From contig JBIIXZ010000002.1 in assembly GCA_044347055.1 (NCBI GenBank), forward strand, positions 1 through 44,755: DNA of 44,755 bases. The letters run 5' to 3'. Position 1 is the first letter of the stretch; the number at the start of each line of letters is the position of its first letter. The stretch is from Bdellovibrionia bacterium. GTDB taxonomy: Bacteria > Bdellovibrionota > UBA1018. Shown here piece after piece: positions 6,619 to 11,404 of the stretch. A program made the position numbers and the translations under genes. The notes under the pieces were generated by a model, which was given only the letters and a program-made list of their open reading frames with translations, ran no database searches and was not told the DNA's origin.

Positions 6619-7104
6619 ATGGCCAACCACTGGGTCGTTTCAAGGTGGCTCCTGCTGGCAGTTCTGGCTGCACCCTCGGCCGCGCTGCCGCATCACAAGC
6701 TCGACTGCACGACCGGTCTGCTGGAGACGTTCGGTGTCAGCAGCAGTCCTTCCACCACCTACCGGGGACGAACCGGCATGGGTTTCAGCTTCAATGACTC
6801 GGCCTTCATGAAGTCGGGCTCGGCGCAGATCGAGGTCGAGAACCCCTCGCCATCGAGCTCCGAAACGTTTCCAGGAAAGCGCCCCGATCGCGCAATGGCT
6901 GCTGCCTCGAGCCCGAAGCTCAGCACGCCGACCCGAGCGCCAGCTTCGATCCCGGAGTCGAAACCCGAAAGATCCGAGCGCCCTCATCACGAGCGCAAGC
7001 TCCCGGACCCTCCTCGTCTTCCCGAGCCGCCTCGCATCGCTCGAGAGCCCGAAAAAAAGCCGAACGACGGCGAGGATGGATCGATCACGCAGAGGCTGCT
7101 CTGA
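6619..7104 (+). CDS. Hypothetical exported Pro/Ser-rich protein
   Basis: ATG start with signal-like WLLLAVLAAPSAA. GC3-rich codons. Low-complexity P/E/R-rich C-terminus. No recognisable domain. Confidence 0.45.
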   Translation: MANHWVVSRWLLLAVLAAPSAALPHHKLDCTTGLLETFGVSSSPSTTYRGRTGMGFSFNDSAFMKSGSAQIEVENPSPSSSETFPGKRPDRAMAAASSPKLSTPTRAPASIPESKPERSERPHHERKLPDPPRLPEPPRIAREPEKKPNDGEDGSITQRLL

Positions 7105-7173
7105 ACGAACGCTTCATCAATTCTTGATAACTGAATGCTTCACCGGACCGGGCGAGACTCCGAGAAATGAGGC

Positions 7174-7575
7174 ATGAAGGACGCAACTCGACGATGGAGC
7201 ACCTGGAGCCTGGGCGTTTTTGCCCTCGTCGCCCTTACCGGCTGGCGCAGCGACACCGAGCTGATGATGAGCGAAGGCGCCCCCTATCGAGCTCCGGCAA
7301 CCGAGCTTGAGTTTCATAAAATGTCTCCCCCACTTCACTCGGATTCGGCTTCCTCGCACACCTCTGCCGTCGGAGGCGGATTGATTCTCCTGCTCTCGAT
7401 GGGAATGGTTCGGAGCGCGAGGGCGAGGAACGAAAAGCGACGGTCCGAATCCAAACGTCTCGTTCCCGCCCCTGTCGTGGACCTTCGGAATAAGCCAGAG
7501 CCCCTTCCTGAAGAATTCCAGGCCCTGATCGCGGAGCTGAACGAGATGGCCGAGTCCTTCAAGGACGCCTCCTAG
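7174..7575 (+). CDS. Hypothetical small membrane protein (two hydrophobic segments, basic loop, acidic helical tail)
   Basis: Hydrophobic segments WSLGVFALVALTGW and GGGLILLLSMGMV. GC3-rich codons. Lies 42 bp upstream of the Fic gene. Confidence 0.4.
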   Translation: MKDATRRWSTWSLGVFALVALTGWRSDTELMMSEGAPYRAPATELEFHKMSPPLHSDSASSHTSAVGGGLILLLSMGMVRSARARNEKRRSESKRLVPAPVVDLRNKPEPLPEEFQALIAELNEMAESFKDAS

Positions 7576-7616
7576 CCCGTCGTCAAGTTTTCGCCACCAC
7601 GACCGATCAGTGATTC

Positions 7617-10193: not shown

Positions 10194-10344
10194 GCGATGA
10201 AGCGCCCCTCCACGACGACTGCAAGCCTTGAAAATCAATACTGAAAATTTCGATCACAGAGTTTCTCGGCAGAACTCTTGCGCTGCACTTCGACTGCGCG
10301 TACCACGCAAAGAACAACGGATTTCGATTCCTGAGGAGAAGATC

Positions 10345-11322
10345 ATGATGCCATTTCTGAGAGTTGTTGGAAACCTCCACGGCCTGTTCGCCCTGCTGCT
10401 CATCGTGAGCGGTGCTTCGGCACAAGCCTCCACGTCCGCGCCCGCCCCGACCGACTCGAGTGGCTCGGCGCAAAGCACGGTGTCGATGGAAGAGTCCAGC
10501 ACCCTGAGCCAGGTCAAGAAGAAGCTCGGATTGAACGTGAACAGCTTTTTTGCAGGACCCGGAATCGGCCTTCCGATCACAGACACCCCGGGATTCACCG
10601 GCCAACCGTCCGATACCGGACTCGGCTTCTTCAACCTGATCTCTGGCCGTTACAAGCTGAACGACCGCATCGCGCTCGACATTCAGTTCCGCAACCAGCT
10701 GATCGTGACCAACCAGTTTGAGTTTCGCCACCAGGGCCAGCGTTTCGGAGTCTCCGGAAAGCTGCTTTCGGGCGACAACTGGAGCCTGACCGGAGCACTG
10801 AACTCGGACCTGCCGATTCGCGGAATCATGGGACAGATTCCGAGCGAGCGCACGCTCATCTTCAATCCCGGAATGTTCGCCAACTATTCCTACAATCCGT
10901 CGGGAAGCCGCTGGTCGCTCTTTGCCCTGCTGACTCCTCGAGTCTGGTTCTATCGCGACCGCCAGGCCGTGGCAGTGCAGGACCGTGCCGGAAGCCCCAA
11001 CAATCCCCAGTCTCAGAAGCCGGAATACGTGATTTCGGTCAACCCCTCGGCAAACTACGCAGTGAACGAGAAGGTCGGCGTCCGCCTCGGAACCACCCTC
11101 GAATACTCGAAGTTCGTCGGAATCGACGAGGCCACGCGCGGCTGGATGCCCATGGAGCTCGGCGTGACTTATGACGTGACTCCGGCCTTCAGCGTGTACA
11201 CCTACCTGATGAGCTCGACGCCGCTCGACGATGGCATGCGCCAGAGAGCCGGCATCACCGAGAATGTTCCCTGGTACAACACGGCCTCAATCAACGTCTG
11301 GCTGAGCGGCACCGTATTCTGA
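10345..11322 (+). CDS. Outer-membrane beta-barrel (porin-like) protein
   Basis: ATG at 10345 follows the AGGAGA RBS. Signal peptide LFALLLIVSGASAQA. Alternating beta pattern. C-terminal LSGTVF. The track ORF starting at 10228 is a 5' over-extension. Confidence 0.65.
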   Translation: MMPFLRVVGNLHGLFALLLIVSGASAQASTSAPAPTDSSGSAQSTVSMEESSTLSQVKKKLGLNVNSFFAGPGIGLPITDTPGFTGQPSDTGLGFFNLISGRYKLNDRIALDIQFRNQLIVTNQFEFRHQGQRFGVSGKLLSGDNWSLTGALNSDLPIRGIMGQIPSERTLIFNPGMFANYSYNPSGSRWSLFALLTPRVWFYRDRQAVAVQDRAGSPNNPQSQKPEYVISVNPSANYAVNEKVGVRLGTTLEYSKFVGIDEATRGWMPMELGVTYDVTPAFSVYTYLMSSTPLDDGMRQRAGITENVPWYNTASINVWLSGTVF

Positions 11323-11351
11323 AGTAGTGCCCGCTGAATTCTCCTCTGTCG

Positions 11352-11404
11352 TGCCGCCGGCGCCCACGAACATCGCGGGGCCGGCGGCATTCGTTTTGAT
11401 TTTC
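11352..11404 (+). terminator. Rho-independent terminator after the OMP gene
   Basis: Perfect 10-bp stem: tgccgccggc (11352-11361) pairs with gccggcggca (11380-11389). It is followed by ttcgttttgatttt. Confidence 0.75.

What the first reader, a model, noticed from the sequence alone, without database searches (positions are those of the whole stretch)
6619..11404. Same-strand cluster: two small exported proteins, an 837-aa signal-peptide Fic protein, a beta-barrel OMP and one terminator
Seen: there are four co-directional ORFs separated by gaps of 69, 41 and 214 nt. The only clear terminator lies after the OMP gene (11352-11404). The large protein has an N-terminal signal-like segment and a canonical Fic active site, HPFTDGNGRTTRF (9915-9953). 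By eye I found no [S/T]xxxE[G/N] inhibitory-helix motif in it or in the two small neighbours. Known: Fic enzymes with HxFx(D/E)GNGRxxR AMPylate or otherwise modify target proteins. Characterised toxic ones are cytoplasmic toxin-antitoxin members or T3SS/T4SS effectors, and activity is normally restrained by the inhibitory Glu. Inference: this may be a Sec-exported, envelope-associated Fic enzyme with its own accessory proteins and OMP. That would be a possible export, surface-display or delivery module not matching the described classes.
Basis: partly seen in the sequence, partly recalled or inferred. Interest (0 to 1): 0.7.

Follow-up and report, generated by a model that had tools for sequence, protein, structure and literature searches.

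The report
Rare signal-peptide Fic toxin, unlinked neighbours
The window encodes a very rare exported protein from an uncultured Bdellovibrio-like bacterium that joins a previously unseen front half to an uninhibited Fic protein-modifying enzyme, most likely a secreted toxin; the neighbouring small genes and outer-membrane barrel are not a dedicated export module for it.

Summary
The four same-strand ORFs, the gaps of 69, 41 and 214 nt, the HPFTDGNGRTTRF motif at 9915-9953 and the strong terminator after the barrel gene are all real.

The "four-gene export module" reading fails.
- The barrel belongs to a family of 68 protein clusters spread through Bdellovibrionota MAGs. None of 11 independent loci has a Fic gene nearby.
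- The two small genes accompany the Fic gene only in an 81%-identical relative, which also has an extra 589-aa gene inserted there.
- A 51%-identical Fic orthologue sits in an unrelated neighbourhood.

What remains is the 837-aa protein, one of only five family members found in billions of proteins. Its layout:
- a conserved Sec-type signal ending A|[D/E]CP, followed by two conserved cysteines;
- an orphan helical domain;
- a Gly/Ala-rich, weakly hydrophobic region;
- a Pro/Ala linker;
- a catalytically intact Fic domain, nearest to XopAC/AvrAC, IbpA-Fic2 and FICD, with no conserved inhibitory Glu.

One relative encodes the N-terminal module alone.

Best reading (about 0.45): a Sec-exported modular toxin whose Fic domain must reach a target cell's cytoplasm.

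Exported Fic toxins are already known (IbpA/PfhB2, polymorphic toxins), so this is a new variant, of moderate interest.

The parts
7617..10130 (+). Gene for the 837-aa signal-peptide Fic protein. This is the core of the finding.
   Evidence: ORF. Pfam Fic 54.4 bits. Only 4 clusters in 5.8 billion proteins. dN/dS 0.13 against L002.
7617..7700 (+). Sec-type signal peptide, residues 1 to about 21-28 (n-region DRRQR, h-region IFLLLSALSFPALA).
   Evidence: Sequence. All five family members have the equivalent segment ending A|[D/E]CP. It is the strongest hydrophobic window in the protein. SignalP was not available.
7701..8528 (+). Orphan N-terminal domain, residues 29-304. It has conserved Cys30 and Cys64, long helices and one beta-hairpin.
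   Evidence: AF2 pLDDT about 70-94 for residues 40-300. Cysteine positions and their conservation. No Pfam or PDB sequence match. No Foldseek hit other than to the Fic part.
8529..9131 (+). Gly/Ala-rich, weakly hydrophobic region, residues 305-505 (38 Ala and 36 Gly in 201 residues, with GxxxG-type runs). Proposed latent membrane-insertion or translocation segment.
   Evidence: Composition. Strong conservation across the family. AF2 pLDDT below 50 for residues 305-456. No window is hydrophobic enough to be a clear stop-transfer helix; the best is 423-441.
9132..9341 (+). Pro/Ala-rich linker of variable length, residues 506-575.
   Evidence: Composition. Length varies among relatives. Modelled as disordered.
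9342..10127 (+). Fic domain, residues 576-837, of the effector type. It has a family-specific insertion of about 25 residues in the flap region.
   Evidence: NCBIfam XopAC/AvrAC 7.7e-33 over residues 578-809, below that family's cut-off. PDB FICD and IbpA-Fic2. Foldseek. pLDDT 80-97. Flap insertion.
9915..9953 (+). Active-site motif HPFTDGNGRTTRF (His767, Arg775, Arg778).
   Evidence: The motif residues are invariant in the family and nearly invariant in the wider alignment.
6619..7104 (+). s1: 161-aa protein with an N-terminal signal and a Pro/charge-rich tail. It is a neighbour, possibly co-transcribed, and not conserved with the Fic gene beyond the closest relative.
   Evidence: dN/dS 0.12. 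No family match. Absent from L001, L004 and L008.
7174..7575 (+). s2: 133-aa protein with an N-terminal signal, a second hydrophobic segment followed by basic residues, and a conserved C-terminal helix. Probably a single-pass membrane protein. It is a neighbour seen only in the closest relative.
   Evidence: dN/dS 0.24. Absent from L001, L004 and L008.
10131..10344 (+). Conserved spacer between the Fic and barrel genes. It includes the inverted repeat TGGTGCC-N5-CACCA at 10141-10159. Probably the barrel gene's own upstream or regulatory region.
   Evidence: 85% column identity to L002, higher than the 79% nucleotide identity of the Fic coding sequence. The hairpin is not significantly stable and has no U-tract. 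A similar TGGTGCC element occurs upstream of barrel homologues that have no Fic gene.
10345..11322 (+). 325-aa 12-stranded outer-membrane beta-barrel, a lineage-wide family. It is adjacent to the Fic gene but not functionally tied to it.
   Evidence: AF2 pLDDT 84. Foldseek finds FapF, the COG4313 channel, NanC and porins at TM 0.58 or lower. 68 clusters. 11 loci without a Fic gene. dN/dS 0.07.
11351..11404 (+). Intrinsic terminator after the barrel gene.
   Evidence: -33.9 kcal/mol, z = -4.07, with a U-rich tail.

Best explanation
The 837-aa protein is a Sec-exported, modular protein toxin or effector of an uncultured Bdellovibrionota bacterium.

Proposed steps:
1. The signal peptide takes it across the inner membrane.
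2. The two conserved cysteines just after the cleavage site form a disulfide outside the cytoplasm.
3. The orphan helical domain and the Gly/Ala-rich, weakly hydrophobic region act as the binding and membrane-insertion (delivery) half.
4. The Pro/Ala linker tethers a constitutively active, XopAC/IbpA-like Fic domain.
5. The Fic domain transfers a nucleotide monophosphate (AMP or UMP; the motif does not say which) onto a protein inside a target cell, either a prey bacterium or a eukaryote.

The Fic domain needs a nucleoside triphosphate, which the periplasm lacks, so it can only work after entering another cell's cytoplasm.

Neighbours. The two small upstream genes may be co-transcribed, but they are lineage-specific envelope proteins. 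The downstream barrel is an independent, lineage-wide outer-membrane protein with its own regulatory region.

Shown: the architecture, the signal-like N-terminus, the intact catalytic motif, the absence of a conserved inhibitory Glu, the rarity of the family, and the lack of linkage to the neighbours.

Inferred: secretion beyond the periplasm, membrane insertion, delivery, the target and toxicity.
For: - Signal-like N-terminus ending A|[D/E]CP in all five family members, plus conserved Cys30 and Cys64.
- HPFxDGNGRxxR is fully conserved.
- No conserved (S/T)xxxE(G/N) motif. In a profile-profile alignment with class II Fic proteins, the match runs from helix alpha-1 to the C-terminal core helix. 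The class II SNAIEG segment has no aligned counterpart.
- The closest named relatives are host-targeted effectors or FICD: XopAC/AvrAC 7.7e-33, IbpA-Fic2, FICD.
- Some clade relatives also carry signal peptides (P0011, P0012).
- The Gly/Ala-rich segments are only weakly hydrophobic. They would probably pass through Sec rather than arrest in the membrane, as expected for latent insertion domains.
- The protein is modular: the 490-aa protein P0112 is the signal plus N-terminal module alone, as a complete ORF.
- No antitoxin or immunity gene is conserved next to it.
- The gene sits in different chromosomal contexts in different relatives, as accessory toxin genes do.
- The lineage is Bdellovibrionota, judged from the barrel homologues.
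Against: - No experiment and no SignalP or DeepTMHMM run.
- The delivery role of the N-terminal half is argued only from composition and architecture. It has no detectable homologue of known function, and its Gly-rich part is modelled with low confidence.
- No alternative cargo domains were found on this N-terminal module, apart from one cargo-less copy, so modular cargo exchange is barely documented.
- The model coordinates could not be inspected, so a non-canonical intramolecular inhibitor cannot be excluded. Candidates are the conserved R-x-G-x-S-x-T segment at residues 620-626 and the TQGIRE helix at the C-terminus.
- The route across the producer's outer membrane is unknown, and the window contains no specialised secretion system.
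Confidence: 0.45

Rival explanations
1. Four-gene module. In this reading s1, s2, the Fic protein and the barrel work together. The barrel, possibly a FapF-like polypeptide channel, exports or displays the Fic protein, and the small proteins act as accessories.
For: - The genes are co-directional, the first two gaps are short, and there is a single strong terminator after the barrel.
- The same order occurs in L002.
- The best Foldseek hits of the barrel include the amyloid-secretion channel FapF, and the model has an N-terminal helix before strand 1.
Against: - L001 (51% orthologue) and L004 lack the neighbouring genes, as does L008, which carries the N-terminal module alone.
- L002 has a 589-aa gene inserted inside the supposed module.
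- The barrel family is more than 10 times more widespread than the Fic family, and none of its 11 other loci has a Fic gene nearby.
- No relative of the Fic family was found in the GTDB species genomes that do hold the barrel.
- The 214-nt spacer is conserved like a regulatory region. Barrel homologues elsewhere carry their own sigma-54-like promoter.
- The similarity to FapF is only at fold level (TM 0.58 or lower, about 10% identity).
Confidence: 0.07
2. Membrane-anchored enzyme acting in the producer. The N-terminal domain sits in the periplasm as a sensor. An odd number of the Gly/Ala-rich segments span the inner membrane. The Fic domain faces the producer's own cytoplasm and modifies its proteins in response to envelope signals, making it a bacterial analogue of the membrane-tethered FICD.
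For: - The Fic core is most similar in sequence to FICD.
- Hydrophobic Gly-rich stretches lie between the signal-bearing N-terminal domain and the Fic domain.
- Arginines follow the last such stretch (RSSLRALRS).
- ATP would be available to the enzyme.
- The gene is chromosomal and under purifying selection.
Against: - None of the segments reaches the hydrophobicity of a typical stop-transfer helix, and several contain or abut charged residues.
- A cytoplasmic Fic domain with no inhibitory Glu and no antitoxin would be expected to be harmful (class I-III logic from PMC8401265).
- The family is far too rare and patchy for a housekeeping regulator.
- The N-terminal module exists without any Fic domain.
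Confidence: 0.15
3. Resident periplasmic or surface protein whose Fic fold does something other than NTP-dependent modification inside a target cell. Examples are binding, de-modification, or use of another phosphodiester donor on envelope or extracellular substrates.
For: - The signal peptide and conserved cysteines point to an extracytoplasmic location.
- Fic folds are known to catalyse other reactions, including phosphocholination, phosphorylation and de-AMPylation (PMC8401265).
- The flap carries a family-specific insertion, which suggests an unusual substrate.
Against: - The motif is the canonical NMP-transferase version with both arginines.
- De-AMPylation by FICD and EfFic appears to require the inhibitory Glu, which is missing here (PMC8401265).
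- No nucleotide donor is known in the periplasm (established knowledge).
Confidence: 0.1

Closest known systems
XopAC/AvrAC of Xanthomonas campestris (type III effector; UMP-transferring Fic domain)
   Same: It is the best named sequence match to the Fic domain: NCBIfam NF041381 at 7.7e-33 over residues 578-809, covering profile positions 233-436 of 451. Both have the canonical motif, and the window protein's clade has no conserved inhibitory Glu.
   Different: The score of 114 bits is far below the family cut-off of 450. There is no LRR domain. The window protein has a Sec signal rather than type III delivery, and its N-terminal 575 residues are unrelated. The nucleotide used cannot be inferred from the motif (PMC8401265).
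IbpA (Histophilus somni) and PfhB2 (Pasteurella multocida): surface or secreted Fic toxins exported by two-partner secretion
   Same: These are exported proteins with C-terminal, uninhibited Fic domains that act inside target cells (PMC3173180). IbpA-Fic2 is among the top structural and profile matches, and the profile alignment to it extends furthest towards the N-terminus of the domain.
   Different: The window protein has no TPS/haemagglutinin secretion domain. Its neighbour is not an Omp85/POTRA TpsB partner but a 325-aa 12-stranded barrel that is not linked to the Fic gene. It is about 840 aa rather than about 4000 aa and has one Fic domain rather than two.
FICD/HYPE (metazoan ER-lumenal, membrane-tethered class II Fic)
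   Same: It gives the best PDB sequence and fold hits for the catalytic core, at 1.7e-13 with the single sequence and 3.8e-27 with the profile. Both proteins enter a secretory pathway.
   Different: FICD has the TVAIE(G/N)-type inhibitory helix and TPR repeats. Here the helix motif is absent and the N-terminal half is unrelated.
Polymorphic toxins with a C-terminal Tox-Doc (Doc/Fic) domain (Zhang et al. 2012, PMC3482391)
   Same: Both are long secreted proteins with an N-terminal trafficking signal and a C-terminal Fic-fold toxin. A plain signal peptide (Sec/T2SS) is a recognised export route for these toxins.
   Different: No immunity gene is conserved downstream. There are no RHS, filamentous-haemagglutinin or pre-toxin domains. 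No alternative C-terminal toxins were found on this N-terminal module.
FapF / COG4313 / NanC-type 12-stranded outer-membrane channels (comparison for the neighbouring barrel only)
   Same: The barrel model has 12 strands and a short helix before strand 1. These proteins are the top Foldseek matches.
   Different: TM is 0.58 or lower, identity is about 10%, and there is no Pfam or NCBIfam match. The barrel belongs to its own Bdellovibrionota-wide family.

Membership tests
Fic/Fido superfamily (Pfam PF02661) | Signature motif HxFx(D/E)GNGRxxR with the catalytic His | tested here: met
   HPFTDGNGRTTRF at residues 767-779. The residues are invariant in the family.
Fic/Fido superfamily (Pfam PF02661) | Profile score above the gathering threshold, and the Fic fold | tested here: met
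   54.4 bits against a cut-off of 24. The AF2 domain has pLDDT 80-97. Foldseek probability is 1.00 to FICD and IbpA-Fic2.
XopAC/AvrAC subfamily (NCBIfam NF041381) | Whole-protein score at or above the curated cut-off of 450 bits | tested here: not met
   113.9 bits, and only the Fic half aligns.
XopAC/AvrAC subfamily (NCBIfam NF041381) | N-terminal LRR domain and type III secretion | tested here: not met
   No LRR or any other Pfam hit in residues 1-560. The N-terminus is Sec-type instead. No T3SS genes were seen in the window.
Auto-inhibited Fic classes II and III | Conserved (S/T)xxxE(G/N) inhibitory helix N- or C-terminal to the core | tested here: not met
   The only match, SLVREG at 281-286, is not conserved. 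Class II SNAIEG has no aligned counterpart in hhalign. The C-terminal helix aligns with a core helix of class II proteins and reads TQGIRE. Side-chain geometry in the model could not be inspected.
FicTA toxin-antitoxin (class I) | Small adjacent partner carrying the inhibitory motif, conserved with the toxin | tested here: not met
   s1, s2 and the L001 296-aa protein lack the motif. The L002 589-aa protein has one match (SDPFEG at residue 283), but it is 589 aa long, carries a signal peptide and occurs only in L002, so it is not a small conserved partner. The neighbours are not conserved with the Fic gene, and the Fic protein carries a signal peptide.
Two-partner secretion (type Vb; IbpA/PfhB2 type) | TPS (haemagglutination-activity) domain at the N-terminus of the exported protein | tested here: not met
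   No Pfam hit in residues 1-560 even at E up to 5.
Two-partner secretion (type Vb; IbpA/PfhB2 type) | Adjacent Omp85-family TpsB transporter with POTRA domains | tested here: not met
   The neighbouring barrel is 325 aa with 12 strands and has no POTRA or ShlB hit. It is not linked to the Fic gene in other genomes.
Polymorphic toxin system | N-terminal trafficking signal plus C-terminal toxin domain | tested here: met
   Signal peptide and C-terminal Fic domain.
Polymorphic toxin system | Cognate immunity gene immediately downstream | tested here: not met
   The downstream genes differ. In the window and L002 it is the barrel. In L001 it is a convergent ABC-F gene. In L004 it is a convergent 172-aa gene. 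In L008 it is a Band_7 gene.
Polymorphic toxin system | The same N-terminal region carrying different C-terminal toxin domains in relatives | tested here: inconclusive
   An exhaustive phmmer search of 1.84 billion representatives with residues 1-520 found only three relatives. Two carry Fic domains and one is the module alone.
General trimeric porins (OmpF/OmpC type); applies to the neighbouring barrel | 16-stranded barrel and a porin family profile match | tested here: not met
   12 strands in the model. No Pfam or NCBIfam hit. TM to OmpF/OmpC is 0.41 or lower.
FapF / COG4313 12-stranded channels; applies to the neighbouring barrel | 12-stranded barrel with an N-terminal plug helix, plus family-level sequence similarity | tested here: inconclusive
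   The strand number and the helix before strand 1 fit, and these are the top Foldseek hits. However, TM is 0.45-0.58, identity about 10%, and there is no profile hit.

The most novel reading that the evidence does not exclude
A stand-alone, AB-toxin-like Fic toxin. It would be secreted through Sec by a Bdellovibrio-like predator and would carry its own previously unseen helical and glycine-zipper delivery module. That module would insert into a target membrane and pass an uninhibited Fic domain into prey bacteria or protists, without any type III, IV, V, VI or VII machinery and without an immunity protein.
Probability: 0.25. Interest if true: 0.65.

Novelty: new variant of a known kind. Interest (0 to 1): 0.4.

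Why it matters
Fic enzymes that act on other cells have so far been tied to dedicated injection or two-partner secretion machines. If this family is a Sec-secreted toxin that delivers itself, it would add a new delivery solution for Fic domains. It would also supply a new, compact membrane-translocation module with no known relatives. Finally, it would give a first hint that uncultured Bdellovibrionota use nucleotidyl-transferase toxins.

The practical lesson for genome scanning is negative. Same-strand adjacency plus a shared terminator did not indicate a functional module here. Comparison with only a handful of related loci was enough to separate the rare Fic gene from a lineage-wide outer-membrane protein.

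Tried and rejected
- Pfam, NCBIfam, PADLOC and PHROGs on s1, s2, the barrel, the Fic N-terminal half, the L002 589-aa protein and the L001 296-aa protein. Nothing was found beyond Fic-core hits.
- PDB sequence searches with the barrel, with a profile of the Fic N-terminal half and with a profile of the segment upstream of helix alpha-1. There were no meaningful hits.
- Foldseek of the full-length model against the PDB and the viral library. Only the Fic part matched.
- Scans of GTDB genomes and JGI metagenome contigs with the Fic family alignment found nothing. The first barrel alignment was too diverse to search with.
- Hypothesis that the conserved R-x-G-x-S-x-T-x-[R/T/M]-[G/R/K] segment (residues 620-629) is a degenerate class II inhibitory helix with Glu replaced. 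Its position relative to alpha-1, alpha-2 and the flap fits. However, neither hmmsearch nor hhalign aligns it to the class II motif, so this stays as a lead only.
- Hypothesis that the C-terminal TQGIRE helix is a class III inhibitory helix. One clade member, P0012, does read TQAIEN. However, hhalign places this helix on a core helix shared with class II proteins, so the idea was rejected as unlikely.
- Lipoprotein reading of the conserved Cys. It was rejected because position -1 is Asp or Glu in every member.
- Defence-system, phage or plasmid origin. No support was found. The window is ordinary chromosome (SecA, PmbA/TldD, PrkA-SpoVR, TonB receptor) with flat GC content.
- Rfam scan of the whole window gave no hits.
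- Contexts of the more distant clade members P0006 and P0012 were uninformative.

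
Full report
**1. What is in the sequence**

The four same-strand ORFs exist as described:
- s1, 6619-7104, 161 aa.
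- s2, 7174-7575, 133 aa.
- The Fic gene, 7617-10130, 837 aa.
- A 325-aa protein from the ATG at 10345 to 11322.

The gaps are 69, 41 and 214 nt. The motif HPFTDGNGRTTRF is residues 767-779, which is nt 9915-9953.

After the last gene there is a hairpin at 11351-11390. Its free energy is -33.9 kcal/mol (z = -4.07; none of 200 shuffles folds as well), and a U-rich tail follows. The consensus scanner missed it. That scanner's other terminator-like hits are no more frequent than in shuffled sequence.

Against the closest relative, all four genes show purifying selection, with dN/dS of 0.12, 0.24, 0.13 and 0.07. The small ORFs are therefore genuine genes.

The window is ordinary chromosome with flat GC content. 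It carries an ABC/FtsX transporter, SecA, PmbA/TldD, PrkA-DUF444-SpoVR and a TonB-dependent receptor. It has no specialised secretion system.

**2. The neighbours are not a module**

The full-length Fic protein has only four clusters in 5.8 billion proteins: itself, P0002 (81%), P0003 (51%) and the fragment P0004.

An exhaustive HMMER search of 1.84 billion representatives with residues 1-520 found only P0003, P0004 and P0112.

The gene contexts differ:

| Locus | Fic relative | Neighbours |
|---|---|---|
| L002 | 81% | s1, s2, an extra 589-aa secreted protein whose stop is 7 nt before the Fic start, Fic, barrel |
| L001 (1.59-Mb scaffold) | 51% | An unrelated 296-aa secreted protein upstream; a convergent ABC-F gene downstream; no s1, s2 or barrel within 10 kb |
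| L004 | fragment | Neither s1/s2 nor the barrel |
| L008 | N-module only | Neither s1/s2 nor the barrel |

The barrel, by contrast, belongs to a family of 68 clusters at 36-92% identity. Some of its members are named as coming from Bdellovibrionales MAGs. It occurs in nine loci of GTDB species genomes labelled Bdellovibrionota or Pseudobdellovibrionaceae, twice in one MAG. The Fic family alignment found nothing in that same genome collection.

Across 11 distinct barrel loci with 7-8 kb of flank, tblastn finds no Fic, s1 or s2 gene.

The 214-nt spacer between the Fic and barrel genes is 85% identical to that of L002. This is more conserved than the Fic coding DNA, at 79%. Its TGGTGCC inverted repeat recurs upstream of barrel homologues that have no Fic gene. 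Five of those homologues also carry a sigma-54-like TGGTAYR-N4-TTGC element.

The barrel gene is therefore an independent, lineage-wide gene, and the Fic cluster happens to lie upstream of it.

**3. The barrel itself**

The AF2 model is confident (pLDDT 84). It has 12 strands, a short helix before strand 1 and a C-terminal Phe. Foldseek returns FapF, the COG4313 channel, NanC and the classical porins, but only at fold level (TM 0.58 or lower, about 10% identity). No Pfam or NCBIfam model matches.

It is neither a general 16-stranded porin nor an Omp85/TpsB transporter.

**4. Anatomy of the Fic protein**

- *Signal.* Once the start codons are corrected, every family member begins with a basic n-region and a hydrophobic core, and ends A|[D/E]CP. 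Asp or Glu at position -1 rules out a lipobox.
- *Cysteines.* Two cysteines (30 and 64) are conserved in all four members whose N-terminus is known. This is what one expects of a protein that folds outside the cytoplasm (inference).
- *Residues about 40-300.* They are modelled as long helices plus one beta-hairpin, at pLDDT 70-94.
- *Residues 305-505.* This region is highly conserved and is 37% Gly plus Ala, with GxxxG-type runs. It is modelled poorly. It is only weakly hydrophobic: no window approaches a typical stop-transfer helix on the Kyte-Doolittle scale or on an approximate Hessa scale (scale values recalled from the literature).
- *Residues 506-575.* A Pro/Ala linker of variable length.
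- *N-terminal 560 residues as a whole.* They match nothing in Pfam, in PDB sequences or in structure libraries.
- *P0112.* This is a complete 490-aa ORF that encodes the signal plus this N-terminal module with no Fic domain and no Fic remnant downstream. The two halves are therefore separable units.

**5. The Fic domain (576-837)**

It is well modelled, at pLDDT 80-97. The catalytic motif is intact and conserved.

The nearest named family is XopAC/AvrAC (7.7e-33, but 114 bits against a cut-off of 450). The nearest solved structures are FICD and IbpA-Fic2.

A wider clade of 30-35%-identical proteins exists. Two of them have signal peptides. Relative to that clade, the window family has an insertion of about 25 residues in the flap region, which is where targets dock.

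Evidence on an inhibitory helix:
- The only (S/T)xxxE(G/N) match is SLVREG at 281-286. It is far from the domain and is not conserved.
- s1 and s2 have no match.
The class II SNAIEG segment is left unmatched.
- The C-terminal helix reads TQGIRE. It corresponds to a core helix of class II proteins, so it is not a class III inhibitory helix.
- A conserved R-x-G-x-S-x-T segment lies just upstream of alpha-1, where an inhibitory helix would be, but it carries no acidic residue. Whether it is a degenerate remnant could not be settled.
- I could not inspect the model coordinates, so a non-canonical blocker is not excluded.

**6. Most likely mechanism**

An uninhibited NMP-transferase behind a Sec signal has no nucleotide donor in the periplasm (established knowledge). 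Either it is delivered into another cell, or its topology returns it to the producer's cytoplasm.

I favour delivery (about 0.45) for these reasons:
- The hydrophobic segments are weak.
- No antitoxin or immunity partner is present.
- The Fic domain has effector-like affinities.
- The family is rare and changes chromosomal context.
- The N-terminal module can exist alone.
- The lineage is Bdellovibrionota, which contains bacterial predators.

In this reading the protein is a secreted modular toxin. Its front half binds and inserts into a target membrane, and its Fic domain modifies a cytoplasmic target. Every step after Sec export is inference.

The rivals are:
- A membrane-anchored enzyme that acts in the producer (0.15).
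- A resident envelope protein with a non-canonical activity (0.10).
- The original four-gene module (0.07).

**7. Comparison with what is known**

Exported Fic toxins are not new. IbpA is displayed through two-partner secretion and PfhB2 is a secreted protein (PMC3173180). Doc/Fic domains are catalogued as C-terminal toxins of polymorphic toxin systems, for which a plain signal peptide is an accepted export route (PMC3482391).

This protein fails the defining tests for several of these groups:
- Two-partner secretion: no TPS domain and no TpsB partner.
- XopAC: score below the cut-off and no LRR domain.
- FicTA: no small adjacent partner with the inhibitory motif that is conserved with the Fic gene.
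- Polymorphic toxin systems in the strict sense: no conserved downstream immunity gene, and no documented cargo exchange.

It works like these systems in outline but is a member of none of them beyond the Fic superfamily. I therefore rate it a new variant of a known kind. The novelty lies in the orphan N-terminal module and in the absence of any dedicated delivery machine.

**8. Verdict**

The exported, uninhibited Fic protein stands. The accessory-protein and outer-membrane-protein module does not.
- Interest is moderate (0.40). The family is tiny, uncultured and untested.
- The delivery hypothesis is concrete and cheap to test.

Noticed in passing
L006, L007, L011, L013, L014: within about 60-110 nt upstream of the barrel homologue start (e.g. 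L006 about 6915-6930): Five of nine barrel-homologue loci carry a sigma-54-type promoter consensus (TGGTAYR-N4-TTGC) upstream of the gene. In three of them (L006, L013, L014) a TGGTGCC-type element lies further upstream. The window and L002 keep the inverted repeat (10141-10159) but have no recognisable -24/-12 element.
   Followed up: partly
L002 1552-3321: The closest relative has an extra 589-aa signal-peptide protein with no family match. It lies between the s2 homologue and the Fic gene, and its stop codon is 7 nt before the corrected Fic start. The window has no trace of it.
   Followed up: partly
L008 511-1983 (true start about 448): A complete 490-aa ORF encodes only the signal peptide and the N-terminal module of the family, with no Fic domain. 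It is followed by a 751-aa Band_7 protein. It is either a truncated toxin or a module with a function of its own.
   Followed up: partly
window 11458-12222 and 12216-13643 (+): An endonuclease/exonuclease/phosphatase-family gene overlaps by 7 nt a two-domain PLD (cardiolipin-synthase-like) gene. In L002 this pair is replaced by unrelated 200-aa and 100-aa genes, so the region downstream of the barrel is also variable.
   Followed up: no
window 5757-6485 (-): A divergently transcribed 242-aa protein has a signal peptide, Gly-rich strands and a C-terminal aromatic residue (…GLVFGLSW). It is probably another small outer-membrane barrel and has no family match. A fragment of a homologue lies at the same place in L002.
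   Followed up: no
window 17323-17408 (+): ARAGORN calls an 86-nt tRNA-His with the unusual anticodon ATG, inside the PrkA coding region on the opposite strand. Rfam finds no tRNA in the window at gathering threshold, so it is probably a false positive.
   Followed up: partly
window 26295-27998 (-): A 567-aa protein combines a response-regulator receiver, an adenylate/guanylate cyclase catalytic domain and a C-terminal PilZ domain. This is an unusual architecture linking cyclic-nucleotide synthesis with a c-di-GMP-binding module.
   Followed up: no
P0008 (469 aa), residues about 120-170: One distant member of the same Fic clade has no signal peptide. Upstream of its Fic domain it has a segment (…VAGLVDPTPVSDLAGAGFAVRRGDPIGVGLSLLSVVPYLGDSIAKPLKG…) that, from memory, resembles pre-toxin TG-type domains of polymorphic toxins. 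Pfam did not confirm this.
   Followed up: partly
window residues 620-629 of the Fic protein (nt 9474-9503) and the equivalent in 10 clade members: An invariant Arg, Ser and Thr in the pattern R-x-G-x-S-x-T-x-[R/T/M/L]-[G/R/K] lie about 120 residues upstream of the catalytic His in clade members without the flap insertion, and about 145 in the window's own family. This is where class II Fic proteins carry SxxxEG, but here there is never a Glu. It may be a relic of a lost inhibitory helix. This is unresolved.
   Followed up: partly
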